In this document: positions 6,679-64,000 of the stretch, piece by piece | Layout of the letters: each line of letters begins with the position of its first letter | How positions within the stretch are numbered: the first letter of the stretch is position 1 | NCBI GenBank assembly: GCA_003222055.1 | Contig: QHUT01000055.1 | Coordinates: 759 to 64,758, forward strand | Length of the DNA: 64,000 bases | Reading direction: 5' to 3' | Source: Gemmatimonadota bacterium | GTDB taxonomy: Bacteria; Gemmatimonadota; Gemmatimonadetes; Gemmatimonadales; GWC2-71-9 | The notes under the pieces: generated by a model | Seen by the model: the letters and a program-made list of their open reading frames with translations, nothing else | Database searches by the model: none | Told to the model about the DNA's origin: nothing | Position numbers and translations under genes: made by a program

Positions 6679-6708
6679 GCTTTCCCTTTTTCCCTTTCCC
6701 GTTTCGCG

Positions 6709-7299: not shown

Positions 7300-7309
7300 C
7301 GCTTCCCCC

Positions 7310-7396
7310 ATTTCGGATTGCGGATTTCGGATTGCGGATTTGACGTACGGGACCCGGCCGTGACAATCCGCAATCCACAATCCGCATTCCGCAATC
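7310..7396. repeat. Heptamer-palindrome element, copy 2
   Basis: GGATTGC/GGATTTC arm followed by a CAATCCG arm; intergenic. Confidence 0.9.
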
Positions 7397-7398
7397 GC

Positions 7399-9958: not shown

Positions 9959-10791
9959 CAGAACTCCAACCGCTTCAGGTAGTCACAGCTCGCCTTGATG
10001 GACGCGAACGAGTCCGCCGGCTGGTCGTGCTCCACGAAGAAGTGCTTGATCCCCGCCTGCTGCTGCTTGGCGAAGATGCGCTTCCAGTCGATCGTGCCGG
10101 CCCCCACGTCGGCCATCTTGTTGTCGGGCGGTCCCATCGAGTCCTTCACGTGGACCAGCGGGAACCGGCCGGGCCAGCGCGCGAAGTACGCCAACGGGTC
10201 CTGGCCCCCTTTGGTGATCCAGTACAAGTCCATCTCCATCTGTACCAGCTTGGGATCCGTCTCGGCGAGCAGCACGTCGTAGGGCAGCTTTCCTTCCACC
10301 GGGGCGAACTCGAAGTCGTGGTTGTGGTAGGCGAACTGCAGCCCCGCCGCGCGAGCCTGTTCCGCCGCCTGGTTGAAATGGGCGGCGATCTTCTTGTAGC
10401 CGTCGACCCCCGTGCGCTGCTCCACGGGGATCCAGGGGACCACGACGTACTGGTGACCGATCACGTGCGCCGCCTCGAGCGCTTCGTGCCAGGCGTCGGG
10501 CCCGCCCGCCGAGATGTGCGCCGACGGCGCGGTGAGGGCGTTGCGGTCGAGCATGGCGCGCACCTCCGCGGGCGTCTTCTTGAAGTAGCCCGCGAACTCG
10601 ACCTCCTTGTACCCGCTCGCGGCCACCCGCGCGATCGTGCCTTCGACGTCCTTCTCCATCTCATGACGCACGGTGTAGAGCTGCAGGCCGACGCGCTCGA
10701 TATGCGCGCGCGCCAGGCGCGGCAGACGGGGCAGCCCGGCCGCCACGGCCGCGCCGCCGAGTACCTGGAGAAAACTGCGGCGATCGCTCAC
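9958..10791 (-). CDS. Sugar phosphate isomerase/epimerase (IolE-like TIM barrel, Tat signal)
   Basis: SDRRSFL, GLQLYTVR, YHNHDFEF, HVKD, FVEHD. Confidence 0.9.
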
Positions 10792-10874
10792 GGTCAGGGC
10801 TCCTCGGGGTGGGGGAGGGAACAAGATCCACGCGCGCCGGCCCTCCCGCCAGGAGGCCCCGCGGGCACGGGGCG

Positions 10875-10930
10875 TTGACAGGGGCCGCCGCTGATGTATG
10901 TTTATGCATCTTCCTGCATAAACAGTGAGG
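10875..10930 (+). promoter_or_regulatory. argGH promoter overlapped by tandem ARG-box-like operators
   Basis: TTGACA 10875-80 and TATGTT 10897-902; AT-rich ATGTATGTTTATGCAT and TGCATAAACAGT resemble ArgR boxes; perfect 10-bp inverted repeat TGTTTATGCA/TGCATAAACA. Confidence 0.75.
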
Positions 10931-10939
10931 CGGGTACCT

Positions 10940-12172
10940 ATGGGGCCGTTGGTCGTCCTCGCTTACTCGGGCGGACTCGACACCTCGGCGATCGTGCCGT
11001 GGCTGCGCGAGAAATACGGCGCGCGCGTGCTGTGTTTCGCGGCGGACGTGGGACAGGGCGCGGGGGAGCTCGGCGGCCTGGTGGACAAGGCCAAGCGGTC
11101 CGGCGCCGTCGATTGCGTCGTCGAGGACCTGCGCGAGGAATTCGTGCGCGACTTCGTGTTCCCCACGCTGCGCGCCGGCGCCGTCTACGCCCGCACCTAC
11201 CTGCTCGGCACCGGCATGGCCCGCCCCGTCATGGCGGCGCATCAGGTGGCGCTCGCCCAGCGCGCCGGTGCGCGGGCGGTGGCGCACGGCTGTACGGGCA
11301 AGGGCAACGATCAGGTGCGCTTCGAGCTCACCTACGCGGCGCTCGCACCGGAGCTGCAAGTGATCGCGCCGTGGCGCGAATGGGAGTTTCAGGGCCGGGA
11401 GGACTTGATCGCGTACGTGAAGGCGAAAGGCATTCCGGTGCAGGCCACACTCGAAAAGCCGTATTCTACCGACCGCAACTTGTGGCACTGCTCCCATGAA
11501 GGCGGCATCCTGGAAGACCCCTCCAAACAACCCCCCGAGCACATCTTCGTCATGACACGCGACCCGCTCGAGGCGCCGGAGTTGCCCGCGGTCGTCGAAA
11601 TCGGGTTCGAGGAGGGGACGCCGGTCACCGTGGACCGCGTGCCGCTTGGTCCCGTCGAGCTGCTCGAGACGCTCAACGCGGTTGCCGGGGAGCACGGCGT
11701 CGGCCGCGCGGACGTGGTCGAGGACCGTCTGGTCGGCATGAAGTCCCGTGGCGTGTACGAGACACCGGGCGGGACCCTGCTGCACGCCGCGCACCGCGAG
11801 CTCGAGCAGCTGGTGCTCGATCGCCGGACGCTGCGCCTCAAGGACGAGCTGGCGCTGCGCTACGCCGACCTGGTGTACGACGGGCGTTGGTGGACCCCGG
11901 AGCGGGAGGCGCTCGACGCCGCCGTCCTGAGCACCCAGAAGCGCGTGACCGGTACGGTGCGGCTCAAACTGTACAAGGGCGGCCTCGCGGTGGCCGGGCG
12001 CGAGAGCCCGTACGCGCTGTATCAGCCGTCGTACGCCACGTTCGGCAAGGACAACGTGTACGACCAGCACCACGCCGAGGGATTCATCCACCTGTACGGC
12101 CTCTCGCTGCGGATCGGTGCGGGCCTCGACGCGGCACGTCAGCAGCGCGAAGTCGGCGCGGCGGCGGACTGA
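10940..12172 (+). CDS. argG: Argininosuccinate synthase
   Basis: LAYSGGLDTS, HGCTGKGNDQVRFE, KSRGVYETPGG. Confidence 0.97.
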   Translation: MGPLVVLAYSGGLDTSAIVPWLREKYGARVLCFAADVGQGAGELGGLVDKAKRSGAVDCVVEDLREEFVRDFVFPTLRAGAVYARTYLLGTGMARPVMAAHQVALAQRAGARAVAHGCTGKGNDQVRFELTYAALAPELQVIAPWREWEFQGREDLIAYVKAKGIPVQATLEKPYSTDRNLWHCSHEGGILEDPSKQPPEHIFVMTRDPLEAPELPAVVEIGFEEGTPVTVDRVPLGPVELLETLNAVAGEHGVGRADVVEDRLVGMKSRGVYETPGGTLLHAAHRELEQLVLDRRTLRLKDELALRYADLVYDGRWWTPEREALDAAVLSTQKRVTGTVRLKLYKGGLAVAGRESPYALYQPSYATFGKDNVYDQHHAEGFIHLYGLSLRIGAGLDAARQQREVGAAAD

Positions 12173-13599
12173 TGGCCGCCCGGCCGACGGAGCCCGCGCC
12201 GCCGCCTCCTGCCGCCCCGCATCAGATGTGGGGCGGTCGTTTCAGCGTCGGTCCCAGTGAAGCGCTCGACGCGCTCAACCGCAGTCTTCCCGTCGATCAC
12301 CGTCTCTGGCCCCAGGACGTCACGGCGAGCAAGGCCTGGGTGCATGCGCTGGGCCGCGTCGGCGTCGTGACCCCCATCGAGGAGACGCAGCTGCTCGAAG
12401 GTCTCGACCGCGTCGCCGAGCGGCTGGCCGATGGCGCGGCCGTCGGCGCGGCGGACGAAGACGTCCACACCCTCGTCGAGCGGCTGCTGTACGCCGAAGT
12501 CGGCGCGGTGGCGGGCAAGCTCCACACCGGCCGCTCGCGCAACGACCAGGTGGCGACCGACCTGCGGCTCTGGACCCTCCAGGCGATCGACCAGGTCGAC
12601 GGCGACATCGCCGCACTCGGGCGCACGCTCGTCGCGCGGGCGCAGGACGGCGTCGACGCCCTCCTCCCCGGTTACACGCACGGCCAGCGCGCCCAGCCGG
12701 TGCGCTGGGCGTACGTGCTGCTGGCGCACGCCTGGCCGCTGGTGCGCGATCGCCAGCGCCTCGCGGATGCGCGCCGCCGCGTGGCCGAGCTGCCGCTCGG
12801 CTCGGGGGCGCTCGCCGGCTCGGGATTTCCCGTGGACCGCGTGCTCTTGAAAGAAGCGCTGGGGTTCCGCGCCGTCTGTGCCAACGCGCTCGACGCCACC
12901 GGGGACCGCGACTTCGTCGCCGAAGTGCTGTTCGCGCTGTCGCTCGTGGGCACGCACCTGTCGCGCCTCGCCGCCGAGCTGGTGCTGTACTCGAGCGCCG
13001 AGTTCGGTTTCGTGCGGCTGTCGGATGATTTCAGCACCGGCTCGAGCCTGCTGCCGCAAAAACGCAACCCGGACGTGCTCGAGCTGGCGAGGGCCAAGTC
13101 GGGCCGCGTGCTGGGTGATCTGGTGGCCCTGCTCACGACGCTCAAGGGCCTGCCGGCCGGCTACAGCAAGGATCTGCAGGAGGACAAGCCTCTGCTGTTC
13201 GACGCGTTCGATACGCTCGGCCTGGTCCTGCCCGCCGTGTCCGGGGCGGTCGCGGCGCTCACGGTGGATGCGGAGCGCATGCACGCCGCGCTCGACGCCT
13301 CGCTGCGCGCCACCGACCTGGCCGACCTGCTCGTCGAGTCGGGCGTTCCGTTCCGGGAGAGCCACGGCCTGGTGGGCCGGCTGGTGCGCGAGGCGGAGCG
13401 CTCCGGTGTGCCGCTCGACCACGTGCCGATCGCCGCGGCGGCAGCCCTCCACCCGGCGTTGGGTGCGGCGCTGGCCCAGCTGGGCACGTGGGAAGATTCG
13501 ATCGAAGGGCGCGCAACGCCGGGCGGCGCCTCTCGGGCCTCAGTGGACGAGCAGCTTGCGGCGCTACAACTTGCGTTCGCCGCGACGGGAAGCACTTAA
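12172..13599 (+). CDS. argH: Argininosuccinate lyase
   Basis: MWGGRF, HTGRSRNDQVATD, STGSSLLPQKRNPD. Confidence 0.97.
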   Translation: MAARPTEPAPPPPAAPHQMWGGRFSVGPSEALDALNRSLPVDHRLWPQDVTASKAWVHALGRVGVVTPIEETQLLEGLDRVAERLADGAAVGAADEDVHTLVERLLYAEVGAVAGKLHTGRSRNDQVATDLRLWTLQAIDQVDGDIAALGRTLVARAQDGVDALLPGYTHGQRAQPVRWAYVLLAHAWPLVRDRQRLADARRRVAELPLGSGALAGSGFPVDRVLLKEALGFRAVCANALDATGDRDFVAEVLFALSLVGTHLSRLAAELVLYSSAEFGFVRLSDDFSTGSSLLPQKRNPDVLELARAKSGRVLGDLVALLTTLKGLPAGYSKDLQEDKPLLFDAFDTLGLVLPAVSGAVAALTVDAERMHAALDASLRATDLADLLVESGVPFRESHGLVGRLVREAERSGVPLDHVPIAAAAALHPALGAALAQLGTWEDSIEGRATPGGASRASVDEQLAALQLAFAATGST

Positions 13600-13694
13600 C
13601 CCAAGGTCTTGCCGAGCGTTAGCCGGTTGTGTAGCATACGAGGCCGTCTCGCTCGTTCCGGGCGGACGGCCACTTTTTTCCCCCGGGGAGATCC

Positions 13695-14243
13695 GTGCGC
13701 TGCCTGGCGCTCAACGCGTCATTCGAGCCGCTCACCATGGTGCCCGTGCGGCGGGCCCTGCGGCTCGTAATCGACCGCAAAGCGGAGATCGTCGAAGCAG
13801 ACGGCTCCGTCATGCGGAGCGAGCGCCTGGCCATCCCGCGGCCCGCTGTGATTCGCCTGGTCAAGTTCGTGCACGTGCCGCGCCGCTTCCGCCGCCAGGT
13901 CACCAACACGTTTCTGTTTGCCCGCGACAACTACCGCTGCCAGTTCTGCGGGCGCAGCCAGCCGGAGCTGCGCCACCGCGAGTGCCTGACGCGGGATCAC
14001 CTGGTCCCGCTGTCGCGCGGCGGCACCAACGCGTGGACCAACGTGCTGACCGCGTGCAGCTCCTGCAACACCCGCAAGGGCAATCTCCTGCCGGAAGAGG
14101 CCGGAATGCATCCGCTGCGGCCGCCGGTGGAGCCGCACTTCGTGCACCTCGCCTGGGCGGTCCGCCGCCTCACGTCGATCCAGTCCAAGTATATCCGGCT
14201 GTTCTACGGCGGCGAGGTCCTCGCGGCGCTCGAGGCGCTCTGA
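13695..14243 (+). CDS. HNH endonuclease (HNH_5/McrA-like)
   Basis: LALNASFEPL, RDNYRCQFCG, TRDHLVPLSRGG, ACSSCNTRKG. Confidence 0.9.
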   Translation: MRCLALNASFEPLTMVPVRRALRLVIDRKAEIVEADGSVMRSERLAIPRPAVIRLVKFVHVPRRFRRQVTNTFLFARDNYRCQFCGRSQPELRHRECLTRDHLVPLSRGGTNAWTNVLTACSSCNTRKGNLLPEEAGMHPLRPPVEPHFVHLAWAVRRLTSIQSKYIRLFYGGEVLAALEAL

Positions 14244-14851
14244 GTTAGTGTTTCCGACCGCGCCTCGAGCGTGAGGTGCGGCAGGCCCGCGATCCGGACC
14301 AGCAGCCGCTGCGCGCCGCGTGCCAGCGCCCCCCCTACATCGCCGCCGCCCGACACGGCCGGGCTCACGTCGCCCTTGAGCCAGCGCGTCAACTGCTCCA
14401 GATCGGTGTCGTTCAGGGTGGTCACTTCGAGGTGGCATACGAAGTAGAAGTTCCCCGAGCCGTTAGGCTTCAGCGTCACGCGGTAGGGAATCTCAATCGC
14501 GCGCTCGAGATCGTCTGCAGTGCCGTATCGGGCGACGCGCCGGCTCTCGCTCCGGATCAGGACGAAGTCATCGGCGAGCGGGTCGTGGCGCGCTACGGCG
14601 TCCCACGGGAAATCCGTCACGAACTGATCGAACCATCCCGAGCGCGAGCGCCACAGCTCCAGGCGGTAGTGCAGCCGCAGCGGGAACCCGGAGCGCATCA
14701 GGCCGACGAACTTGCCGTCGGCGAGCAGGGCGGTGGCCTGGACGCGCGGGACCCCGCTCTGGAGGATGACCGTCAACGCGGGCGACTGCGCGCCCGCCGG
14801 GGTGACGGCCGCGACACCGAGCAGGGCGAGGACCGCCAGGCCCGACCTCAC
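14204..14851 (-). CDS. Exported DUF4390-like protein
   Basis: Signal peptide; SGFPLRLHYRLEL…WFD pattern; lies downstream of NtrY/NtrX-like genes. Confidence 0.6.
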   Translation of the reverse strand: MRSGLAVLALLGVAAVTPAGAQSPALTVILQSGVPRVQATALLADGKFVGLMRSGFPLRLHYRLELWRSRSGWFDQFVTDFPWDAVARHDPLADDFVLIRSESRRVARYGTADDLERAIEIPYRVTLKPNGSGNFYFVCHLEVTTLNDTDLEQLTRWLKGDVSPAVSGGGDVGGALARGAQRLLVRIAGLPHLTLEARSETLTQSASSAARTSPP

Positions 14852-14852
14852 C

Positions 14853-16598
14853 TCAGAAGCGGTGGTCGAGTCGCAGCGTAAATCGCAGCGGCTCGCCGGC
14901 GGTCACCGCCTTGGCCACGTACAATCCCAATCCGCCCCAATCGACGCCGAGGCCCAGGTCGGCCAGCCAGCTTCCGAGCGTCGGCAGCCGGTCGGCGGGC
15001 AGCCGGCCCGGCCCGCCGCCGACGAGCCATGCCTGCCCGGCGTCTCCCAGCACCACGAGATCGGGCCCTTGCAGCGTGAACAGCGACTTCACCGCTTCGT
15101 CCTCGGGCGTCGACGAGCCGTACGACCAATGCAGGGAGATGTGACCGCGGTATTCGGCCTGCGCCAGGATCACCCGGTCGCATGCCGCCACCAGCGTGCC
15201 GGCGAACGCCGGGTCGACGATGTCGCGATTGCACGCGCTGTGTCGGAAGCCGTATCCGGCCAGCGGGTCGGGCCCGCCCATGGAGAGCCGCTGTTGCAGG
15301 GGGAGTGCATCCCCCCCGACCCATCCCCCCGCGAGCAGCCGGAGGTTGACGCGCCCCGACGGGCTCACGCGCATGTAACGACGGAAGTCCAGGAACAGGC
15401 GGCTGAAAGCGTAGGTGCCGTCTGTGGCGATCGGGCTCCGCACGGCGGCGGGGACGCCCGCCTGCGGCGCGACGTCCCGGGAGTGGGAGTGCTCGAGCCG
15501 GGCGCGCAGCCACCACCCGGCCGTGGGGTCCGCGCGGTCGTTGCGGGTATCGAAGCTCACATTGCCGCTGAGTGCCGTGTAGTGCCCATCGTCGATCGGC
15601 GGGTTGGGACGCCACGCCTGGTCGTTCCGGAACACGGTCCAGGGGTCGCGCGCCCCGACGCTCGTCTGCCAGTCGTGCCGGAGCTCGAGCTCCAGCTGCA
15701 GCGCCCGCTCGGGCTGCACGAACACGCGGCCGGCCACGCCCTTGCTGAGGTAGTAATCGCGATAATCGCGCTGGAACAGAAACGCCGACCACCCCACTTC
15801 GCCGTTGCGCAGTCCCCAATCTTCCACCGGGACCACGGTGTCGAACGCGCGGAACTGGACGCCGTAGGCCGGCACCTCGCCGGAGCGCAGCTCGGCGCGA
15901 AAGATGTAGCCCAGATCGCTGCGCTTGTCGGTGAATTGCCCGGCGGTGCGGAATACGCCCAGCGCATCCACTCGCAGCCGCAGGTTGCGGTGCAGCTTCC
16001 AGTCGAACAGCGGCCCGAACACCACGGGCAGTCCCTCCACCCGGTTGAACGTGCCGCCCGTGGCCAGCGTGAGCGATGAGCGCGAGTCCTGCGTGCCCCA
16101 GGACTTTTCCACGCCGAGGTTGCGGAACCAGCGCCGCAGGTCGGGGGGGACGAGGGCGATCTCGTCGCCTTTGGCGCGGAAGGCGAGGGGCTCCTGGTAG
16201 ACGCGCACCTCGCCCGACACCGCGGCTCCGGCGGCGCGGGCCACCGTGCCGCCGACCACGATGAGGTCGCCCGCGATCACCGCGCCCGGCTCGAGCACGG
16301 CGTCGCCATTGATCACGAGCAGCGTGCCTTCGACCCGGCCGCCCAGGGTCACCGGTCCGCTCCGCACCGCGACGTCGCCGCGCCAGGCGTTGCCGGCCGG
16401 GAGCCACGAGCGCCCCACCAGCCGGGTGGTCGTCGCGGCGTTGTAGCGGTGGACCACTTCTTCGGCCACCGCGCGCGGCAGCTCCGGCGGCTGAACGATG
16501 GCGCTCGCGCTTTCCGGCTGGATCACGATGGCCGTGTCTTGCGCCGCGGCGACCGCGCAGCCGAGCAGGCACAGGGCGCCGAGCGCCACGCTGCGCAC
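14853..16598 (-). CDS. Outer-membrane protein with N-terminal beta-helix (bactofilin-like) repeats and an Omp85/TamA-like barrel
   Basis: Signal peptide; GDVAV…GRVEGTLLVINGDAVL…GDLIVVGG repeats; DTRNDRADPTAGW, GGPDPLAGY; C-terminal Phe. Confidence 0.7.
   Translation of the reverse strand: MRSVALGALCLLGCAVAAAQDTAIVIQPESASAIVQPPELPRAVAEEVVHRYNAATTTRLVGRSWLPAGNAWRGDVAVRSGPVTLGGRVEGTLLVINGDAVLEPGAVIAGDLIVVGGTVARAAGAAVSGEVRVYQEPLAFRAKGDEIALVPPDLRRWFRNLGVEKSWGTQDSRSSLTLATGGTFNRVEGLPVVFGPLFDWKLHRNLRLRVDALGVFRTAGQFTDKRSDLGYIFRAELRSGEVPAYGVQFRAFDTVVPVEDWGLRNGEVGWSAFLFQRDYRDYYLSKGVAGRVFVQPERALQLELELRHDWQTSVGARDPWTVFRNDQAWRPNPPIDDGHYTALSGNVSFDTRNDRADPTAGWWLRARLEHSHSRDVAPQAGVPAAVRSPIATDGTYAFSRLFLDFRRYMRVSPSGRVNLRLLAGGWVGGDALPLQQRLSMGGPDPLAGYGFRHSACNRDIVDPAFAGTLVAACDRVILAQAEYRGHISLHWSYGSSTPEDEAVKSLFTLQGPDLVVLGDAGQAWLVGGGPGRLPADRLPTLGSWLADLGLGVDWGGLGLYVAKAVTAGEPLRFTLRLDHRF

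Positions 16599-54889: not shown

Positions 54890-54893
<4 letters not shown>
53256..54893 (+). CDS. Exported Ig-like (Big_2) domain protein with PPC-like domains
   Basis: Signal-like N-terminus with Cys; TWSSSDPRVATVDDAG; D-x-x-E-P-N-D repeats; DLDLYV. Confidence 0.75.
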
Positions 54894-56415
<1,522 letters not shown>

Positions 56416-56419
<4 letters not shown>

Positions 56420-57454: not shown

Positions 57455-58099
57455 GTGACGCGTTCGGCACTCGGCGCGCTGCTGCTGGCGCTCGCGCCGC
57501 GACCGGCGTCGGGCCAGCAGGTCACGGTCGGCCCGCAGGTCGTGCTGTCCGACTATCGCGAAGTCGCCGCGGGACTGCGGTATCGCGGCACCGGCCTCGG
57601 GGGCTCGCTGTGGGCGCGGCGGGACAGGCTCTCCGCCGAGGCGGCCGTGGTGCGCGTGAGCCTAGATCCCGCGGACGGCAGCGCCGCGACGGCGAGCTTC
57701 ACGACCACGCAGGTGGACGTCTGGGTCGCGTACGACGTGGCCGCGTACGCGAGCGTCGAGGTGGGCGTGCTTCACCGCAGCGCCGACCCTGAGTTCGACG
57801 CCCAATCGGTGGGAGCGGTGCGGGTGGGGGCGCGCTCGTTCTACGAGATCGGGCCGGGCGCGACGGTCGTGTTCCGCGCCAACTACCTCGCGGCGCCGAA
57901 ATTCTCGGGAGGGGGCCGCGCGGCCGTCTCGCTCGATCTCGGTCTCGGCCTCGACGTCCGGCTGGCAGGCCGGCTTCACGGCACCGCGACCTACGCGTTC
58001 AACCGCATGAACCGCAAGACCAACCCGGGCGGGACGGGGGAGATCGACGCGCCGATCCAGGAGACCCTGGCCCGCGTGGGCCTCGCCGTTCAATTCTGA
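57455..58099 (+). CDS. Putative outer-membrane beta-barrel protein
   Basis: Signal peptide, amphipathic strands, ends ARVGLAVQF. Confidence 0.7.
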   Translation: MTRSALGALLLALAPRPASGQQVTVGPQVVLSDYREVAAGLRYRGTGLGGSLWARRDRLSAEAAVVRVSLDPADGSAATASFTTTQVDVWVAYDVAAYASVEVGVLHRSADPEFDAQSVGAVRVGARSFYEIGPGATVVFRANYLAAPKFSGGGRAAVSLDLGLGLDVRLAGRLHGTATYAFNRMNRKTNPGGTGEIDAPIQETLARVGLAVQF

Positions 58100-58136: not shown

Positions 58137-58164
58137 TTGACAGTGCGGTGCGCGGGCGTAGTCT
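58137..58164 (+). promoter_or_regulatory. Candidate sigma-70 promoter of the cytochrome-porin/oxidase operon
   Basis: TTGACA-N16-TAGTCT. Confidence 0.55.
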
Positions 58165-58276: not shown

Positions 58277-59680
58277 ATGAGGGTACGCATCACGAGGCGT
58301 GGTGGCACTGCGCAGATGTCGTGGCTGTTAAGTGCGGCCGTAACGAGTGGTTGTCTGGCGGCCGCGCTGGCGCTGAGCGGGGGCCGATCCAAAGCGTACA
58401 CGGCATATTCGCTGGCCGTCCACAAGGCCTCGGCCATTCCCGCGTTCGCGCGGAAGTACGGACTGCGTTGCTCCGCCTGTCATACGGTGTGGCCCGAACT
58501 GAACGCCTTCGGTCAGCGGTTCAAAGACAACGGCTACCAGCTCGGCAACGAGCGGGACTCGCCGATGTGGCAGTCTCCTGCGTACTGGCCCATCGCCATG
58601 CGCACCACGCCGCAGTGGCACCTGGAGAGCACCACCCATCAGATCACCGACGCCGCGCCGGCGGGGAAGACCCTGAGCCAGACCGGCTTCGATCTCTCCG
58701 GCGTCGATTTTCTGCTGCTCGGCACCCTGCACAAGAACATCACGTTCGGCCTCGTGCCGACCCTGGACGCTGACGGCACCACGGGACTCGAGGCGGCCTT
58801 CGTGCGCTTCGACAATCTGGGCCAATCGCCCTGGGCGAATCTGAAAGTCGGCAAGTTCGAGCTCGACAATCTGCTCTCCGAGAAGCGGTTCACGTGGCTG
58901 TCGAACAACGGCGGGTTCCTCTACGCCTACCACTACCTGCCGAGCGGCAGCGCCAACAACTTCGGCTTCGGCGACAACCAGATCGGCGCCGAGTTCTCGG
59001 GCCATTCGTTCAACAGCTACACGCGCTACAGCGTGGCGCTGCTCACCACCGACGACGGGGAGCCGGGGTTGCCGGGCGGCAAGAGCATGGACGCCATGTT
59101 CACCTTGAGCCAGGCCTTCGCGCCGGGCGGCGGTCTAGGACCGCAGCGGGTCGGCGTGTTCGGCTATCTGGGACACCGTCCGACCACCTTCGAGACGGTC
59201 GTCGGCGCGCCGATTCCCGGCACAGGCGCGGGCAACAAGTCGTTCTACCGGATCGGGGCGACGGCACAGCTTTGGCTCGGCAACCTGGAGCTGCTCCCGC
59301 TCGTGTCCCATGCGCAGGATGACGCGGCGCTCGGTCCCGGCCCGGAGAAACCGACCTGGAACAACGCGCTGCTCGAGGCGCACTACGTGGCGACGCCCCG
59401 TTTCATGGTGCAGGGACGCTACGAGCTGACGCGCATGTCGACGCAGGGTGATCCCGCCACGCCCCAGACGCTCGGCGACGCCGACGCCTTCGCCCTCGGC
59501 TTCCGCTACTATCCCTTCATGATCAGCCGCGACGGGATGGCCCTGCACGGTGAATTCGCGATGACGAGGACGACCGGGACGGCGCCCCTCAGCGGGGACG
59601 GCTCCGGCGTCGATCCCGCGGACCCTGCGACGAAGGTGTGGAGCCGCAGCTTGCTGCTCGCCTTCGATTTCGCCTTCTGA
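58277..59680 (+). CDS. Cyc2-like monohaem cytochrome c fused to a porin
   Basis: AIPAFARKYGLRCSACHTVWPELNAFGQRFKDNGY matches the Cyc2 N-terminal signature; beta-barrel body; ends AFDFAF. Confidence 0.8.
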   Translation: MRVRITRRGGTAQMSWLLSAAVTSGCLAAALALSGGRSKAYTAYSLAVHKASAIPAFARKYGLRCSACHTVWPELNAFGQRFKDNGYQLGNERDSPMWQSPAYWPIAMRTTPQWHLESTTHQITDAAPAGKTLSQTGFDLSGVDFLLLGTLHKNITFGLVPTLDADGTTGLEAAFVRFDNLGQSPWANLKVGKFELDNLLSEKRFTWLSNNGGFLYAYHYLPSGSANNFGFGDNQIGAEFSGHSFNSYTRYSVALLTTDDGEPGLPGGKSMDAMFTLSQAFAPGGGLGPQRVGVFGYLGHRPTTFETVVGAPIPGTGAGNKSFYRIGATAQLWLGNLELLPLVSHAQDDAALGPGPEKPTWNNALLEAHYVATPRFMVQGRYELTRMSTQGDPATPQTLGDADAFALGFRYYPFMISRDGMALHGEFAMTRTTGTAPLSGDGSGVDPADPATKVWSRSLLLAFDFAF

Positions 59681-59693
59681 AAGGGGGGCGCCG

Positions 59694-60548
59694 ATGAGAT
59701 CACACACGCGATGGCTGGCCGTCGTCTCCGGGTGGGGCGTGCTCCTGTGCGCCGCCGGGGGAGGGGCAGCGCCCGCTCGGGCGCAGGAGTCCCACATCGG
59801 CGGCATGACGGGGCACGCCGCCGCAGCCAAGCCGCTGTACGAGCGCTATTGCGCCGGCTGTCACGGTGACGAAGGCGACGCCCGCGGCGAGAACGCGCAA
59901 TGGATCGATCCCAAGCCGCGCGACTTCACCATGGCCGTCTTCAAGTGTCGCTCGACCCCCACCGGCACCCTGCCGACGGACGCGGACTTGTTCGATGCCG
60001 TGACCCGCGGGTTCGTGACGACGAACATGCCCCCCTGGGTGGCCCTCACCCCCGGGAACCGGGCGGATCTGGTCGCGTACATCAAAACGTTTTCGCCGAA
60101 ATGGAAGACGGGCCACGCGGGAACGCCGATCACGATTCCTCCGGAGCCCGCGCTCTCGATCGAGAGCATGCGGCACGGCCGCGACCTGTTTCAGAAGATG
60201 GAATGCTGGAAGTGTCACGGCACGAGTGGGCACGGCGACGGGCCGTCCGCCGCGACGCTCACCGATAACAAGGACCTGCCGATTCACCCCTACGATTTCT
60301 CCAGCGGTTCGCGCTTCATGTGCGGCGTCACGAACCGCGACCTGTACAAGATCTTCATGACCGGGCTCGACGGCACGCCCATGCCGTCGTTCGCCGACGA
60401 CATCAAGCCCGCGGACGGGTGGGATCTCGTGCACTTCCTGCGCACGTTGCAGCCGCTCGATACGCCGGAGGCGCGGATGTGGAAGGCGTGGCTCGCGACC
60501 CACGCCCAGGAGCTCAAGCCGATCGGTCCACCGGGGACAGGGCAGTGA
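59694..60548 (+). CDS. Periplasmic dihaem cytochrome c
   Basis: Signal peptide; CAGCH…MPPW and CWKCH…MPSF. Confidence 0.92.
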   Translation: MRSHTRWLAVVSGWGVLLCAAGGGAAPARAQESHIGGMTGHAAAAKPLYERYCAGCHGDEGDARGENAQWIDPKPRDFTMAVFKCRSTPTGTLPTDADLFDAVTRGFVTTNMPPWVALTPGNRADLVAYIKTFSPKWKTGHAGTPITIPPEPALSIESMRHGRDLFQKMECWKCHGTSGHGDGPSAATLTDNKDLPIHPYDFSSGSRFMCGVTNRDLYKIFMTGLDGTPMPSFADDIKPADGWDLVHFLRTLQPLDTPEARMWKAWLATHAQELKPIGPPGTGQ

Positions 60549-60567
60549 TGTAAAGGAGGCCGTTCGT

Positions 60568-61290
60568 ATGCGCGTCCGCGATCTGATGCTCGTCGGTGGT
60601 GTGGGGCTCGGGGGAACCGCGATGATGATCGGACGGGCTGCGACGCCACCGGGCGCCACGATCAGCGGGAAGGTGACGTTCACCGGTACGCCCCCGAAGA
60701 TGAAACCGATCGACATGGCCAAGGAGCCGTTTTGCGCCCGGCTCCACGCCGCGGCCCCGGTGCTGACCGAAAACGTGACTACGGGCCCGGGCGACGCGCT
60801 GCGCTGGGTGCTGGTGTACGTCTCCGCCGGCGACCAGGGCTCCGCACCGGCGACGGAGACGGTGCGGCTCGATCAGAAGGGCTGCCAGTACATCCCCCAC
60901 GTGCTGGTCGTGCAGCCGAACCAGCCACTGGACATCTATAACGACGATTCCACGTCCCATAACATCCACCCGCTCGCCAAGGTGAATGCCGAGTGGAACA
61001 AGTCGCAGCCGATCGGGGCGCCGCCGATTCACGCCAAGTGGGAGAGCCCCGAGTTCATTCCCGTGAAATGCAACGTGCATCCGTGGATGCACGGCTGGCA
61101 TCTGGTGCTCACGACCTCCCATTACGCGGTGACCGGGGAGGACGGAGCGTTCCGGCTGCAGGGGCTGCCGCCGGGCAAGTACACGATCACCGCGTGGCAG
61201 GAGCAGTTCGGCACGCAGAGCCAGGACGTGACCGTCACCGGGAGTGAGACCAAGTCGGTCAGCTTCGTCTTCAAAGCCACGCCGTACTGA
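60568..61290 (+). CDS. Exported cupredoxin-like protein with a carboxypeptidase-regulatory-like domain
   Basis: DQKGCQYIPHV, HNIH, CNVHPWM (type-1 Cu ligand pattern); LPPGKYTITAW. Confidence 0.8.
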   Translation: MRVRDLMLVGGVGLGGTAMMIGRAATPPGATISGKVTFTGTPPKMKPIDMAKEPFCARLHAAAPVLTENVTTGPGDALRWVLVYVSAGDQGSAPATETVRLDQKGCQYIPHVLVVQPNQPLDIYNDDSTSHNIHPLAKVNAEWNKSQPIGAPPIHAKWESPEFIPVKCNVHPWMHGWHLVLTTSHYAVTGEDGAFRLQGLPPGKYTITAWQEQFGTQSQDVTVTGSETKSVSFVFKATPY

Positions 61291-61298
61291 GCGCCTCC

Positions 61299-62102
61299 GT
61301 GGGCAAACTGTTCGCTGTCGTGGTCACGATCATCACGGTCGTCTCGACCGCCATTTTCATCGCGCACACGTGGTGGCTGCCTCCTGACATCTCCGCCCAC
61401 GGGCACGCGATCGATCGTCAGCTTTCGGAGACGATGATCTCGTCCGGCGTGCTCTTCGTGCTCTCCCAGCTGGCCCTCGCGCTGTTCGCGTGGCGCTTCG
61501 GCGACCGCGAGGACGGACGCCGGGTCAAGCCGTTTCCGGGCGGCGCCACTCCCATGGTCGTGTTCGCCGCGGTCCTGGTGGGTGCCGAGATCCTGACGCT
61601 CACGCTCGTCGGCGCGAAGGTCTGGGCCGGCGTCTTCCAGACGCCGCCCGATCCGAACTCGCTGCAGATCGACGTGCAGGCCGAGCAATTCGCTTTTTAT
61701 TTTCGATATCCGGGGCCCGATGGCCGGTTCGGGGCCACCCACCCGGAGCTGATCAACGAAGCCAGTGAAAACTTTTTCGGACTGGATCCGGCGCGAGACA
61801 CCTCGGCGCGCGACGACATCGTCGTCCCGACGCTGACGATCCCGCTCAATCGGCCCATCGCGCTGACCCTGCGGGCCAAGGACGTCAACCACGCGTTTTA
61901 CGTGCCAGAACTGCGGATCCAGCAGGACTTCGTTCCCGGTCTCACCATCCCTCTGCATTTCACGGCGACCCAGACGGGGAGGTACGAAATCGTGTGCACG
62001 CAGTTGTGCGGCCTGGGGCACTACAACATGCGCGCGTACATCGAGGTGTTGCCCCAGGCGCAGTTCGACCAGTGGCTGAAGGACAAGGCGGCGCAACAAT
62101 GA
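61299..62102 (+). CDS. coxB: Cytochrome c oxidase subunit II
   Basis: Two TMs; DVNHAF and CTQLCGLGHYNM CuA motif; no fused cytochrome c. Confidence 0.93.
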   Translation: MGKLFAVVVTIITVVSTAIFIAHTWWLPPDISAHGHAIDRQLSETMISSGVLFVLSQLALALFAWRFGDREDGRRVKPFPGGATPMVVFAAVLVGAEILTLTLVGAKVWAGVFQTPPDPNSLQIDVQAEQFAFYFRYPGPDGRFGATHPELINEASENFFGLDPARDTSARDDIVVPTLTIPLNRPIALTLRAKDVNHAFYVPELRIQQDFVPGLTIPLHFTATQTGRYEIVCTQLCGLGHYNMRAYIEVLPQAQFDQWLKDKAAQQ

Positions 62103-63877
62103 CGCACGCCACAGTCGCAGGCGCTCACCGCCACGCGCCTCCGCAGGGCTTTCTCCGGAAACATGTCTTCAGTCTCGATCACAAGGTGATCGGGAAGCAG
62201 TACCTGGATCTGGCGCTGGTCGCGGTCTGCACCGGGATGATCCTCTCCTGGTTGATGCGTTTCCACCTGGCCTGGCCCGAGACGCCGATTCCGGGCCTCG
62301 CGAAACTGTCGCCCAACGGGGCCGCCGGCGGCGTGATCACGCCCGAGTACTACCTCTCGCTGATGACGATGCACGGCACGATCATGGTGTTCTTCGTCCT
62401 GACGACGGCGCCGTTTGCGGGGTTCGGCAACTATTTCCTGCCCATTCAGGTCGGGGCGGAGGACATGGCGTTCCCGCGCATCAACATGATGTCCTTCTGG
62501 GTCACCCTCGTGGCGTTCCTGGTCCTGATCAGCGCCTTTGTCGTGGGGGACGGACCGCCCCTGTCGGGTTGGACCGCGTACGCGCCGCTCTCCGCCGTCG
62601 GCAAGGACGCCGGTCCCGGCCAAGGCGTCGGCCAGACGCTGTGGGCGGTCTCCATCACGCTGTTTTGCGTCGCGCAGCTGCTTGGCGCCCTGAACTTCGT
62701 CACGACGACGCTCGATCTGCGGACGAAAGGGATGTCGCTCGCCCGCATGCCCTACTCCACCTGGGCGTGGTTCATCACCTCGGTCATCGGCCTCATCGCG
62801 TTCGCGGTCCTCATGCCCGCCTGCATCTTGTTGATCCTGGACCGCGTGGCGGGCACGAGCTTTTTCATTCCGGCGGGGCTGGTGATCAGCGATCGCCTGC
62901 AGCCGCATGCGGGGGGCTCGCCGCTCCTGTGGCAGCACCTTTTCTGGTTCTTCGGGCACCCGGAGGTGTACATCGCGATCCTGCCGGGGTTCGGCATCAT
63001 TTCGCACATTCTCCCGGTCTTTGCCCGGAAGCCGCTGCTGGGACCACGGGTCATGATCGCCTGTCTGGTCGCCATCGCCTTCCTGAGCTACACGGTGTGG
63101 GGCCACCACATGTTTTTGAGCGGCATGAACCCGTTCTCGGCGACGCTGTTCTCCGTGCCGACGCTGGTCATCACGATCCCCGCCACGATCGTGACCCTCC
63201 TGTGGATCGGCACGATCTACGGCGCCCGGCTGCGGTTCACGACGCCGGCCCTGTTCTGCCTCGGGTTCGTATCGGTGTTCGTGAGCGGCGGCATCAGCGG
63301 CTTCTTCCTGGCCCAACCGTCGATCGATACCTACCTGCACGGCACCTATTTCGTGGTGGGGCACTTCCATTTCGTCATGGGGGTCGCCGCCATGTTCGGC
63401 ATCTTCGCCGCGACGTATTTCTGGGCGCCGAAGATGTTCGGCCGCATGATGAACGAAACGCTGGGGAAGTGGCACTTCTGGCTCACCTTCATCGGCGTCT
63501 ATTGCGTCTTCATGCCGATGCACTACCTCGGCCTCGCCGGCAACGTGCGCCGCTACTCGGCGTTCACGGACGACTACCTGAAACCCCTGATCCCGCTGCA
63601 CCGCTTCATCACCGTCGCCGCTCTGTTCACTGGCGCGGCCCAGCTGATTTTCCTCTTCAACCTCATTCGCAGCCGGTTTCGTGGTCCCCAGGCCCCCGAC
63701 AATCCGTGGGAAGCGACCTCGCTCGAGTGGTCCACCACCTCGCCACCCCCCTTCGACAATTTCGGGGGACGACCGCCGGTGGTGGAGCGGGGTCCCAACG
63801 AGTACGGCATCGGGAGCGGCGCCCGCGGGGTGGATTATGGAATGCAGGCCGCGGCCGCTCGGGTGAGCGCGCGGTGA
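62099..63877 (+). CDS. coxA: Cytochrome c oxidase subunit I (A1-type)
   Basis: DHKVIG, HGTIMVFF, FWFFGHPEVYI, WGHHMF, HFH. Confidence 0.96.
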   Translation: MTHATVAGAHRHAPPQGFLRKHVFSLDHKVIGKQYLDLALVAVCTGMILSWLMRFHLAWPETPIPGLAKLSPNGAAGGVITPEYYLSLMTMHGTIMVFFVLTTAPFAGFGNYFLPIQVGAEDMAFPRINMMSFWVTLVAFLVLISAFVVGDGPPLSGWTAYAPLSAVGKDAGPGQGVGQTLWAVSITLFCVAQLLGALNFVTTTLDLRTKGMSLARMPYSTWAWFITSVIGLIAFAVLMPACILLILDRVAGTSFFIPAGLVISDRLQPHAGGSPLLWQHLFWFFGHPEVYIAILPGFGIISHILPVFARKPLLGPRVMIACLVAIAFLSYTVWGHHMFLSGMNPFSATLFSVPTLVITIPATIVTLLWIGTIYGARLRFTTPALFCLGFVSVFVSGGISGFFLAQPSIDTYLHGTYFVVGHFHFVMGVAAMFGIFAATYFWAPKMFGRMMNETLGKWHFWLTFIGVYCVFMPMHYLGLAGNVRRYSAFTDDYLKPLIPLHRFITVAALFTGAAQLIFLFNLIRSRFRGPQAPDNPWEATSLEWSTTSPPPFDNFGGRPPVVERGPNEYGIGSGARGVDYGMQAAAARVSAR

Positions 63878-64000
63878 CGGAGGCGCCCGTGACGACCGTC
63901 GCTTCGCCCCCGGCACAGCCACCCGGGCCACCCACCCCGGCGGCGCCGCCGGTCGTCGAGCAGCCCCGGCCCAGGCCGGCCCAGACGGGCGTGTGGATCG
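63874..64000 (+). CDS. 5' part of probable cytochrome c oxidase subunit III (truncated by the window edge)
   Basis: GTG overlaps the coxA stop; frame is open to the end (…AQTGVWI); operon position. Confidence 0.55.
   Translation, partial: MTEAPVTTVASPPAQPPGPPTPAAPPVVEQPRPRPAQTGVWI

What the first reader, a model, noticed from the sequence alone, without database searches (positions are those of the whole stretch)
58277..64000. Cyc2-like cytochrome-porin, dihaem cytochrome c, cupredoxin and aa3 oxidase in one operon: candidate extracellular electron-uptake (Fe(II)-oxidation-like) chain
Seen: six tightly spaced co-directional genes. They encode an OM barrel with N-terminal PAFARKY…CSACH…P-x-L-x-x-FG-x-x-FK-x-x-GY (haem motif 58469-58483) and terminal Phe, a dihaem His/Met cytochrome, a protein with the type-1 Cu pattern H…C-x-x-H-x-x-M, CoxB without fused cytochrome c, A1-type CoxA, and probably CoxC. 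Known: the order parallels the Acidithiobacillus ferrooxidans rus operon (cyc2-cyc1-cup-coxBACD-rus), which carries electrons from outside the cell to O2. Inference: this apparently heterotrophic organism may encode a complete outer-membrane-to-oxidase wire. The donor (Fe(II), Mn(II), humics or other) is unknown.
Basis: partly seen in the sequence, partly recalled or inferred. Interest (0 to 1): 0.9.

Follow-up and report, generated by a model that had tools for sequence, protein, structure and literature searches.

The report
Cyc2 porin-cytochrome with aa3 oxidase
A soil Gemmatimonadales genome carries a conserved gene cluster that joins an outer-membrane haem-porin of the iron-oxidase (Cyc2) type to two small electron carriers and an oxygen-reducing oxidase, a probable route for taking electrons from outside the cell, of a kind already noted in a 2020 preprint.

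Summary
The cluster has eight genes and runs past the window: cyc2-like, dihaem cytochrome c, cupredoxin, coxB, coxA, coxC, coxC, coxD.

The first protein meets every published sequence criterion for Cyc2 that I could test: length, a single CXXCH, AXPXFAR[K][Y], and PXL. It models as a 16-strand OprP/OprO-like barrel. The FeGenie HMMs and a tree with reference Cyc2 proteins could not be run.

The gene order is kept in 14 of 14 other Gemmatimonadales genomes that have the orthologue. It is also kept in 67 of the 80 best public loci, mostly soil Acidobacteriota MAGs. Two loci carry a cbb3 oxidase instead.

A complex model places haem 1 of the dihaem cytochrome on the periplasmic haem face of Cyc2 (score 0.77; best control 0.41).

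Two genes are analogues of their rus-operon counterparts, not homologues. The dihaem protein resembles chain B of PDB 6H5L, not cytochrome c4. The copper protein is an amicyanin-like cupredoxin fused to an Ig-like domain. No rusticyanin was found.

The reading as an outer-membrane-to-oxidase wire is supported in silico only, and the donor, probably Fe(II), is untested. Degli Esposti et al. (2020 preprint) already described such rus-like clusters in Gemmatimonadetes MAGs. This is therefore a new member of a known kind, of moderate interest.

The parts
58277..59680 (+). cyc2-like fused monohaem cytochrome c and 16-strand outer-membrane porin (467 aa; the start may instead be the ATG at 58316)
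   Evidence: ORF. Motifs AIPAFARKY (residues 53-61), CSACH (65-69) and PEL (73-75), matching the criteria read. AlphaFold model: pLDDT 80.8, 16 strands. Foldseek returns porins, including OprP 2o4v at rank 2 and OprO 4rjw/4rjx. No Pfam or NCBIfam hit.
58469..58483 (+). CXXCH haem c attachment motif (CSACH)
   Evidence: C65, C68 and H69 are invariant in 35 of 35 aligned homologues.
59694..60548 (+). periplasmic dihaem cytochrome c (284 aa), His/Met type
   Evidence: Pfam Cytochrome_CBB3 and Cytochrom_C. PDB 6h5l_B at E=9.5e-52. CAGCH at 53 and CWKCH at 171, with invariant M112 and M230. Lies next to cyc2 in 79 of 80 public loci. Predicted to dock on Cyc2.
60568..61290 (+). amicyanin-like type-1 cupredoxin domain fused to a C-terminal CarboxypepD_reg (Ig-like) domain (240 aa)
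   Evidence: Pfam CarboxypepD_reg at residues 182-234. Invariant H131, H134, C168, H171 and M174. Model pLDDT 75. Foldseek top hits are cupredoxins: 5fc9, amicyanin, plastocyanin. The profile gives weak hits to 5fc9 and amicyanin over positions 100-179. JGI labels some homologues 'plastocyanin'.
61299..62102 (+). coxB, oxidase subunit II with a CuA site and no fused cytochrome c
   Evidence: Pfam COX2; TIGR02866 CoxB. CTQLCGLGHYNM present and no CXXCH.
62099..63877 (+). coxA, A-family haem-copper oxidase subunit I (GHPEVY motif)
   Evidence: Pfam COX1 at 452 bits; TIGR02891. Motif. It is one of three COX1 genes in the genome.
63874..64000 (+). start of the first of two coxC (COX3-family) genes. 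It runs to position 64479 counted on the window's scale. coxC2 (64499-65119) and coxD (65126-65440) follow beyond the window.
   Evidence: L002 ORFs. Pfam COX3, COX3 and COX4_pro. NCBIfam subunit III models.

Best explanation
The cluster encodes a dedicated electron-uptake respiratory branch.

The proposed path runs as follows. A Cyc2-type monohaem cytochrome fused to a 16-strand outer-membrane porin takes electrons from a reduced extracellular or pore-diffusing donor. The likely donor is Fe(II), free, organically complexed or mineral-derived. Cyc2 passes the electrons at its periplasmic haem face to haem 1 of a soluble dihaem cytochrome c. From there they go, directly or through the amicyanin-like cupredoxin, to the CuA site of an aa3-type A-family oxidase (CoxBA, two CoxC, CoxD), which reduces O2 and should pump protons.

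In this organism no true RuBisCO was found, and two other A-family oxidases are present. The branch would therefore supply supplementary (lithoheterotrophic) energy, Fe(II) detoxification, or both, at oxic-anoxic interfaces in soil.

Shown: the gene content, motifs, folds, synteny and distribution. Modelled: the Cyc2-dihaem contact. Inferred: the direction of electron flow, the order of the carriers, the donor, and the physiological role.
For: - Cyc2 criteria. Those read in Keffer et al. 2021, section 12, are all present: at least 365 aa, CXXCH, AXPXFAR[Q/K][T/Y] before it and PXL four residues after it. P55, F57, R59, C65, C68, H69 and P73 are invariant in 35 of 35 diverse homologues.
- Fold. 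The model has 16 strands at pLDDT 80.8. Foldseek hits include OprP 2o4v (rank 2) and OprO 4rjw/4rjx. These are the structures Keffer et al. name as structural homologues of the Cyc2 porin.
- Synteny in the order. Among 101 genomes of the order, 15 have the orthologue. In 14 of the 14 other than the window's genome, the order cyc2-dihaem-cup-coxB-coxA-coxC-coxC is kept. coxD follows in 12 of 14, and the other two end at a contig end.
- Synteny in public genomes. In the best 80 public loci the dihaem gene follows cyc2 in 79 and coxB plus coxA follow in 67. Two more have a cbb3 oxidase (CcoN plus a FixO/cytochrome c fusion) in that place.
- Operon-like spacing. Gaps are 13, 19, 8 and -4 nt. Upstream genes are conserved only within the genus.
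- Complex model of Cyc2(50-467), dihaem(35-284) and 3 haem. Score 0.77, best of 3 controls 0.41. That mark was reached by 58 of 80 solved complexes and 2 of 110 mismatched pairs. The runs agree in at least 97% of contacts, and partner pLDDT is at least 87. The interface is Cyc2 residues 61-67, 77-81 and 89-93 plus the short turns at 245-248, 282-289, 373-374 and 416-417, against dihaem residues 47-56 and 106-122, which is the haem-1 side. I found no solved structure related to Cyc2 by sequence.
- Oxidase and carrier. CoxB has CuA and no fused cytochrome, so it needs a soluble donor. The cupredoxin ligand set is invariant and the fold is cupredoxin.
- Genome context. The only RuBisCO-family hit is an RLP-like protein below every NCBIfam cut-off. 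There are two further COX1 loci, one with a cytochrome-fused CoxB. ctaA lies elsewhere in the genome.
- Transcription hint. One contig of a soil RNA library spans the cup/coxB junction: 182 nt, 61205-61386, one differing letter. This is weak, because DNA can be present in RNA libraries.
Against: - No experiment of any kind bears on this protein or its clade.
- All 80 best public loci are from MAGs, so no cultured host is known to me.
- Keffer et al. warn that Cyc2 homologues occur in organisms not known to oxidise iron, and that function is uncertain away from well-characterised clades (passage from section 13).
- I could not run the FeGenie HMMs, a BLAST against reference Cyc2, or a tree with them. 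The Cyc2 cluster (1, 2 or 3) is therefore unknown.
- The cyc1 and cup counterparts are not homologues of the rus-operon proteins, as far as PDB searches show. No rusticyanin was found: best 22.9 bits against a cut-off of 146.7.
- In 10 of the 80 loci with at least 3.9 kb of sequence downstream, no oxidase follows cyc2-dihaem(-cup). The module is therefore not tied to an oxidase everywhere.
- No second invariant Met or His that could serve as the distal haem ligand appears in the alignment.
- The complex job used my own alignments and carried ligands, unlike the tool's calibration.
Confidence: 0.6

Rival explanations
1. This is an ordinary branch of aerobic respiration. The dihaem cytochrome c and the cupredoxin carry electrons from the cell's own quinol:cytochrome c oxidoreductase (bc1 or ACIII) to an aa3 oxidase that lacks a fused cytochrome. 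The Cyc2-like protein is a side valve, for instance for Fe(II) detoxification or redox sensing, and not the main entry point.
For: CoxB lacks a cytochrome domain, so it needs soluble carriers whatever the source of electrons. The organism is probably organotrophic, since only an RLP was found. It has multihaem, ACIII-like genes next to another oxidase.
Against: The genome already has two other A-family oxidases. cyc2 is the first gene and is kept with the carriers in 79 of 80 loci, including loci without an oxidase. The model docks the dihaem cytochrome on the haem face of Cyc2. No quinol oxidoreductase gene lies in the cluster.
Confidence: 0.2
2. The flow is outward. Cyc2 and the dihaem cytochrome export respiratory electrons to extracellular Fe(III), Mn(IV) or humic acceptors when O2 is scarce. 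The oxidase and the outer-membrane conduit are alternative sinks that share the same periplasmic carriers.
For: In 10 of 80 loci, cyc2-dihaem(-cup) occurs without an oxidase downstream. A Cyc2 with a potential as low as -130 mV has been reported (abstract). A survey of marine Gemmatimonadota says that annotation cannot tell whether Cyc2 homologues serve oxidation or reduction (passage).
Against: An O2 reductase follows in 69 of 80 loci: 67 aa3 and 2 cbb3. All biochemically tested Cyc2 proteins named in the texts I read act as Fe(II) oxidases. No quinol dehydrogenase of the CymA/ImcH type was seen in the cluster.
Confidence: 0.1
3. The first protein is merely an anion- or phosphate-type diffusion porin that happens to sit beside cox genes, and its CXXCH is not used.
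For: The barrel resembles OprP/OprO and general porins. One look-alike cluster in the protein atlas carries Pfam Porin_O_P on 20% of its members.
Against: The CXXCH and the surrounding motif are invariant in 35 of 35 homologues, down to 27% identity. The motif is described as specific to Cyc2. Coupling to a cytochrome partner is strict, and the predicted contact is haem to haem.
Confidence: 0.03

Closest known systems
rus operon of Acidithiobacillus ferrooxidans (cyc2-cyc1-cup-coxBACD-rus)
   Same: It begins with a Cyc2-type outer-membrane cytochrome-porin, followed by a dihaem cytochrome c, a copper protein directly before coxB, and then an A-family oxidase with subunits III and IV. The gene order was read. 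The proposed logic is the same: outside donor to O2.
   Different: The dihaem protein is related to chain B of PDB 6H5L (E=9.5e-52), and no c4-type entry is among its PDB hits. The copper protein is an amicyanin-like cupredoxin with a C-terminal Ig-like domain, and no AcoP-like entry is among its PDB hits. That PDB holds A. ferrooxidans c4 and AcoP is recalled, not checked. There is no rusticyanin in the genome, coxC is duplicated, and ctaA lies elsewhere. The host is a soil Gemmatimonadales MAG with no sign of autotrophy.
rus-like COX clusters in Gemmatimonadetes and other soil-bacterial MAGs (Degli Esposti et al., bioRxiv 10.1101/2020.03.01.968255)
   Same: The passages read describe just this. 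They report variants of the Acidithiobacillus iron-oxidation COX cluster in Gemmatimonadetes MAGs, without ctaA, with other cytochromes c in place of Cyc1, and with a duplicated COX3.
   Different: I could not see its Figure 1d or Supplemental Table S1, so I cannot say whether this genome or clade is listed. In the passages I found, the preprint does not name the 6H5L-type cytochrome, the cupredoxin-Ig fusion, the Acidobacteriota majority or the cbb3 variant. In the peer-reviewed version (PMC8239418) my term search found Gemmatimonadetes once, in a table, and Cyc2 not at all.
Cyc2 of neutrophilic iron oxidisers (Cyc2PV-1 of Mariprofundus; Cyc2 of Ghiorsea bivora)
   Same: The architecture and N-terminal motif are the same: a single haem and a 16-strand OprO/OprP-like barrel.
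   Different: Those proteins come from obligate or specialised iron oxidisers and have been shown to oxidise Fe(II). This one comes from a probable soil organotroph and is untested, and its Cyc2 cluster assignment is unknown.
Dihaem cytochrome, chain B of PDB 6H5L (HAO-like complex of Ca. Kuenenia stuttgartiensis)
   Same: Clear sequence homology over residues 45-252. Both are small dihaem partners of a larger haem protein.
   Different: In 6H5L the partner is an octahaem HAO-type enzyme (passage). Here the predicted partner is an outer-membrane monohaem porin. The gene name Kustc0457 is recalled and comes from no call.
MtoAB / PioAB porin-cytochrome conduits
   Same: They serve as an outer-membrane electron conduit for Fe(II) oxidation.
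   Different: Those use a 26-strand porin that sheathes a separate decahaem cytochrome (passages). Here one 467-aa chain carries both the haem and a 16-strand barrel.

Membership tests
Cyc2 fused cytochrome-porin (criteria of Keffer et al. 2021, PMC8406198) | Length of at least 365 residues | tested here: met
   467 aa. Criterion read.
Cyc2 fused cytochrome-porin (criteria of Keffer et al. 2021, PMC8406198) | Single CXXCH haem c motif near the N terminus | tested here: met
   CSACH at residues 65-69 is the only CXXCH. It is invariant in 35 of 35 homologues.
Cyc2 fused cytochrome-porin (criteria of Keffer et al. 2021, PMC8406198) | AXPXFAR[Q/K][T/Y] motif just upstream of CXXCH, described as unique to Cyc2 | tested here: met
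   AIPAFARKY at residues 53-61, three residues before C65. Criterion read.
Cyc2 fused cytochrome-porin (criteria of Keffer et al. 2021, PMC8406198) | PXL motif four residues after CXXCH | tested here: met
   H69-T-V-W-P73-E-L75. P73 is invariant and L75 is conserved in at least 90% of sequences.
Cyc2 fused cytochrome-porin (criteria of Keffer et al. 2021, PMC8406198) | 16-strand beta-barrel porin with OprO/OprP-like fold | tested here: met
   The model has 16 strands between residues 106 and 466, at pLDDT 80.8. Foldseek finds 2o4v (OprP) at E=7.2e-12, plus 4rjw and 4rjx (OprO). This is a model, not a solved structure.
Cyc2 fused cytochrome-porin (criteria of Keffer et al. 2021, PMC8406198) | Signal peptide (outer-membrane targeting) | tested here: inconclusive
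   A hydrophobic helix at residues 14-32 and an A-S-A just before I54 are seen in the sequence. No signal-peptide predictor was available. The terminal Phe is typical of outer-membrane barrels; that rule is recalled.
Cyc2 fused cytochrome-porin (criteria of Keffer et al. 2021, PMC8406198) | Match to the FeGenie Cyc2 HMMs, blastp E<=1e-5 to known Cyc2, and placement in cluster 1, 2 or 3 | not testable with these tools
   No FeGenie models and no named reference Cyc2 sequence could be obtained. Pfam and NCBIfam have no hit.
Cyc2 fused cytochrome-porin (criteria of Keffer et al. 2021, PMC8406198) | Fe(II) oxidase activity | not testable with these tools
   This needs expression and an assay.
rus operon (Acidithiobacillus type) | cyc1: c4-type dihaem cytochrome after cyc2 | tested here: not met
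   A dihaem cytochrome is present, but its best PDB relative is 6h5l_B (E=9.5e-52) and no c4 entry appears at E<=1.
rus operon (Acidithiobacillus type) | cup (AcoP-type cupredoxin) before coxB | tested here: inconclusive
   A cupredoxin domain sits in the same position. No AcoP-like PDB hit appeared by sequence or profile.
rus operon (Acidithiobacillus type) | coxB-coxA-coxC-coxD | tested here: met
   coxC is duplicated.
rus operon (Acidithiobacillus type) | rusticyanin gene | tested here: not met
   TIGR03095 against the whole genome (96% complete): best 22.9 bits, cut-off 146.7.
Type-1 (blue) copper cupredoxin | Cupredoxin fold with a His...Cys-x2-His-x2-Met ligand set | tested here: met
   H131/H134, C168, H171 and M174 are invariant in 41 of 41 sequences. 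Foldseek top hits are cupredoxins at E from 6e-4 and TMt 0.46-0.66. Copper binding itself is untested.
A-family haem-copper oxidase, type A1 | COX1 and COX2 with CuA; GHPEV motif in helix VI | tested here: met
   That the motif defines type A1 is recalled from the Pereira/Sousa classification.

The most novel reading that the evidence does not exclude
A large clade of uncultured soil Gemmatimonadales and Acidobacteriota (Terriglobia, Acidiferrales) carries a self-contained, horizontally mobile module: Cyc2, a 6H5L-type dihaem cytochrome and a cupredoxin. The module plugs extracellular Fe(II), or another reduced solid or organic donor, into aa3 or cbb3 oxidases. If so, energy-conserving lithoheterotrophic iron oxidation would be a common trait of dominant soil heterotrophs rather than a speciality of classical iron bacteria. 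The physical Cyc2-dihaem complex would be its core.
Probability: 0.4. Interest if true: 0.7.

Novelty: new member of a known kind. Interest (0 to 1): 0.5.

Why it matters
Cyc2 is the most widely used marker gene for microbial iron oxidation. Its meaning in organisms that are not classical iron oxidisers remains an open question (passages).

This clade is attractive for testing that question. The Cyc2 gene is locked into an operon-like cluster with its probable periplasmic partner, a copper carrier and a terminal oxidase. The cluster occurs in abundant soil lineages. The Cyc2-dihaem contact gives a concrete, testable interface.

If the chain works, Fe(II)-driven respiration by soil heterotrophs would need to enter models of iron and carbon cycling at redox interfaces. 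If it does not, counts of cyc2 in soil metagenomes overstate the potential for iron oxidation.

Tried and rejected
- Family and structure searches of the Cyc2-like protein. Pfam, NCBIfam and PDB sequence searches gave nothing. The protein atlas gave only unnamed clusters and one with Porin_O_P on 20% of its members.
- Promoter and terminator scan. The consensus scan of the cluster gave no promoter-like site, and terminator-like sites at the chance level: 4 found, 4.0 expected. It is uninformative.
- Reference Cyc2 sequences for a tree or BLAST could not be obtained.
  - The one genome-contig scan returned only the close clade.
  - A tblastn of plasmids returned 9 short N-terminal matches, in Ralstonia, Caballeronia and Methylocystis replicons. 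I did not follow them up.
- RNA evidence. No RNA holder was listed by the look-up of sequencing runs. The two RNA-library runs that I laid cover 12 of 30 bins each, mostly with 5 or more differing letters in conserved coxA stretches, which are likely to come from other organisms. Parts without cover are no evidence.
- Autotrophy. The only RuBisCO-family hit is RLP-like. Other carbon-fixation pathways were not searched.
- Direction of transfer between phyla.
  - The quick tree nests all Gemmatimonadota rows as one clade (SH-aLRT 95) among Acidobacteriota rows.
  - Holding the 57 other ingroup rows together costs 39.5 log-likelihood units, with p-AU 0.025.
  - I named that group after seeing the tree, the tree is 'quick', and the outgroup branches are long. 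I therefore treat the direction as a hint only.
  - Four of 95 loci were left out of the tree because their match was cut short (L033, L110, L112, L113).
- Upstream genes (a small barrel-like ORF, a TPR-like ORF, a Ser/Thr kinase and a Big_2 protein) were rejected as part of the cluster. They recur next to cyc2 only within the genus, plus a partial match in L047.
Supplemental Table S1 of the 2020 preprint and the figshare tree and Fig. S8 of Keffer et al. may already list this clade or its Cyc2 cluster.
- No paper on the Acidobacteriota version of the cluster turned up in searches. Those searches cover only the held library.

Full report
**What is there**

The window is G000:C133:759-64758, from a 3.69-Mb, 96%-complete genome. 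Homologues carry the source names Gemmatimonadales or Gemmatimonadetes. The stretch is held in soil metagenome runs: 4 runs from 4 studies hold at least half of the sampled words.

From 58277 to the window's end, six co-directional ORFs lie at the stated coordinates, with gaps of 13, 19, 8 and -4 nt. I fetched the rest of the contig as L002, where an L002 position equals the window position minus 58000. It shows that the last ORF is the first of two COX3-family genes. A COX4_pro gene follows, and then a convergent gene. The unit is therefore eight genes: cyc2-like, dihaem cytochrome c, cupredoxin protein, coxB, coxA, coxC, coxC, coxD.

**The first protein**

It has no Pfam, NCBIfam or PDB sequence match. 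Keffer et al. 2021 (PMC8406198; I read sections 5 and 12 and further passages) define Cyc2 homologues by these features:
- a length of at least 365 residues;
- a CXXCH;
- an AXPXFAR[Q/K][T/Y] motif shortly before the CXXCH, which they call unique to Cyc2;
- a PXL four residues after it;
- a 16-strand porin with structural likeness to OprO/OprP (4RJW, 2O4V).

The window's protein has 467 residues, AIPAFARKY at 53-61, CSACH at 65-69 (58469-58483) and PEL at 73-75.

A full-library search found 2545 clusters at 50% identity with E<=0.001. In an alignment of 35 relatives, down to 27% identity, P55, F57, R59, C65, C68, H69 and P73 are invariant.

An AlphaFold model built on that alignment (pLDDT 80.8, pTM 0.78) has a small helical N-terminal domain and 16 strands. 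Foldseek returns 16-strand porins, with OprP 2o4v at rank 2 and OprO 4rjw/4rjx among the hits.

Every published sequence and fold criterion that I could test is met. The FeGenie HMMs, a BLAST against reference Cyc2 and the cluster assignment could not be tested, because no named reference Cyc2 sequence could be obtained with the tools.

**The carriers**

- Dihaem cytochrome. It has CAGCH and CWKCH, with invariant M112 and M230. It is clearly homologous to chain B of PDB 6H5L (E=9.5e-52). A 2026 preprint cites that entry as the HAO of Ca. Kuenenia stuttgartiensis (passage). It is not c4-like.
- Copper protein. Sequence search recognises only a C-terminal CarboxypepD_reg domain. Its N-terminal half keeps H131, H134, C168, H171 and M174 invariant in 41 of 41 homologues. 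The model (pLDDT 75) is matched best by cupredoxins: 5fc9, amicyanin, plastocyanin and pseudoazurin, at E from 6e-4. A profile gives sub-threshold hits to the same proteins over positions 100-179. JGI labels some homologues 'plastocyanin'.
- Oxidase subunits. CoxB has a CuA pattern and no fused cytochrome. CoxA has GHPEVY.

**Conservation**

Within the order:
- 65 of 101 genomes have some match to the protein. This tally includes the two unpublished genomes G077 and G090.
- 15 of 101 have an orthologue at 55% identity or more.
- In the 14 orthologue-bearing genomes other than the window's, all of dihaem, cup, coxB, coxA and both coxC follow in order. coxD follows in 12, and the other two loci end at a contig end.

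Across 185,579 species genomes:
- A pattern scan found at least 598 motif matches, 553 of them relatives.
- Of the best 80 that were kept, 18 are labelled Gemmatimonad-, 58 are labelled Acidobacteriota or one of its subgroups, and 4 carry other labels. All 80 are MAGs.
- The dihaem gene follows cyc2 in 79 of the 80; the remaining locus ends at cyc2.
- coxB and coxA follow in 67 of the 80.
- Of those 67, 62 also show coxC2 and coxD, and the other 5 are cut by contig ends.

Exceptions and variants:
- Five loci have cyc2-dihaem-cup and no oxidase.
- Five loci have cyc2-dihaem only.
- Two loci have a cbb3 oxidase in that place (COX1 at 244 bits, plus a FixO-cytochrome c fusion) after a divergent cupredoxin-Ig protein.
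- Five acidobacterial loci have two extra genes between cyc2 and the dihaem gene.

Genes upstream of cyc2 are not conserved beyond the genus. The conserved core is therefore Cyc2 plus the dihaem cytochrome, usually with the cupredoxin and an O2 reductase.

**A modelled contact**

I modelled Cyc2 (residues 50-467), the dihaem protein (35-284) and three haems, each protein with its own alignment. The result was a score of 0.77 against a best control of 0.41, out of 3 controls. That mark was reached by 58 of 80 solved complexes and 2 of 110 mismatched pairs. The runs agree in at least 97% of contacts, and partner pLDDT is at least 87. The counts hold only roughly, because I used my own alignments and ligands rode along.

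The interface joins the haem-motif region of Cyc2 (61-67, 77-81, 89-93) and four short inter-strand turns to residues 47-56 and 106-122 of the dihaem protein. These include the first CXXCH and the Met112 loop. That is what an electron-transfer complex at the periplasmic mouth of the barrel would look like. It is a model, not a measurement.

**Genome context**

- The only RuBisCO-family hit is RLP-like and falls below every NCBIfam cut-off.
- There are three COX1 genes. One sits beside a CoxB with a CXXCH, and one follows multihaem genes.
- ctaA is on another contig.
- No rusticyanin reaches the family cut-off.
- One 182-nt contig from a soil RNA library, with one differing letter, spans the cup/coxB junction. 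This is a weak hint of co-transcription.

**Interpretation**

The best reading (0.6) is a dedicated branch that carries electrons from an extracellular or pore-diffusing donor, through Cyc2, the dihaem cytochrome and probably the cupredoxin, to an aa3 oxidase. Fe(II) is the likeliest donor, because every Cyc2 tested so far oxidises Fe(II). The direction of flow, the order of the carriers, the donor and the role are all inferred.

Rivals:
- Ordinary respiration, with Cyc2 as a side valve (0.2).
- Outward electron export (0.1).
- A plain porin (0.03).

**Comparison and novelty**

The cluster works like the rus operon in order and logic, and Cyc2 and CoxBACD belong to the same families. The cyc1 and cup positions are filled by non-homologous analogues, coxC is duplicated, and rus and ctaA are absent.

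Degli Esposti et al. (bioRxiv 10.1101/2020.03.01.968255; passages) already reported such variants in Gemmatimonadetes MAGs. They describe other cytochromes in place of Cyc1, a duplicated COX3 and ctaA elsewhere, and they proposed lateral transfer. In the peer-reviewed version my term search found no mention of Cyc2. A survey of marine Gemmatimonadota also notes widely annotated Cyc2 homologues.

This locus is therefore a new member of a known kind.
- the identity of the two carriers;
- the strict Cyc2-dihaem coupling;
- the predicted interface;
- the predominance of Acidobacteriota among the holders;
- the cbb3 variant;
- a hint that the Gemmatimonadota copies form one clade nested among acidobacterial ones. 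That clade has SH-aLRT 95, and the AU test gives p=0.025 on a group I named after seeing the tree.

**Verdict**

Interest is moderate (0.5).

Noticed in passing
L122-L136 (regions of 15 other Gemmatimonadales genomes): Besides the cox-linked orthologue, genomes of this order carry other Cyc2-like ORFs. In 13 of the 15 regions fetched I found an ORF of 400-974 aa with one CXXCH and a PxF[A/S]R...CxxCH...Px[L/F] motif, ending in F or Y. Twelve of the 13 have no dihaem, cup or cox gene nearby. The window's own genome has only the one copy.
   Followed up: partly
L124 (G095:C37:52000-65000), about 6300-8700, minus strand: A second, divergent module lies in a different order: cupredoxin-Ig (34% identity), then dihaem cytochrome (43%), then a Cyc2-like protein (28%). 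Another dihaem gene sits about 3 kb away on the other strand. No cox hit was found.
   Followed up: no
L070 and L082 (Acidobacteriota MAGs), about 10500-15100: In these loci cyc2, the dihaem gene and a divergent cupredoxin-Ig gene are followed by a cbb3-type oxidase (a 486-aa COX1 and a 446-aa FixO plus two cytochrome c domains) instead of aa3.
   Followed up: partly
L095, L096, L100, L111, L115, about 10300-12650: Five acidobacterial loci have two extra co-directional genes (about 316-355 aa and 418-452 aa) inserted between cyc2 and the dihaem gene. I did not scan them for families.
   Followed up: no
window 58137-58164: In the 177-nt gap before cyc2 there is a perfect TTGACA, then 16 nt, then TAGTCT (3 of 6 matches to TATAAT). 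I read it by eye from the sequence printed. It falls below the threshold of the consensus scan, which reported no promoter.
   Followed up: no
window 57455-58099 (+): A 214-aa ORF directly upstream of cyc2 has no family hit and ends in ...GLAVQF. It may be a small outer-membrane barrel. It is conserved next to cyc2 only in the same-genus genome, plus a 34-residue match in L047.
   Followed up: partly
window 54890-56419 (+): A Ser/Thr protein kinase with an N-terminal zinc ribbon and a C-terminal PEGA domain. Kinase homologues occur in several related loci but not at a fixed place.
   Followed up: no
G000:C105:509-3924 and G000:C148:13065-20163: There are two further A-family oxidase loci in the same genome. 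One has a 344-aa CoxB carrying a CXXCH (caa3-like). The other lies downstream of ORFs with one or two CXXCH motifs (possibly ACIII-like).
   Followed up: partly
L045 (labelled Bacillota), L071 (proteobacterium), L106 (Limnocylindria): Three MAGs labelled as other phyla carry the full cluster. Their Cyc2 proteins nest inside the Gemmatimonadota clade or the Acidobacteriota groups. The cause may be mis-binning or recent transfer.
   Followed up: no
dihaem cytochrome, residues 85 and 210 (window 59946-59948 and 60321-60323): Two further cysteines, C85 and C210, are invariant in 29 of 29 homologues, besides the two CXXCH motifs. They may form a disulfide or play another role.
   Followed up: no
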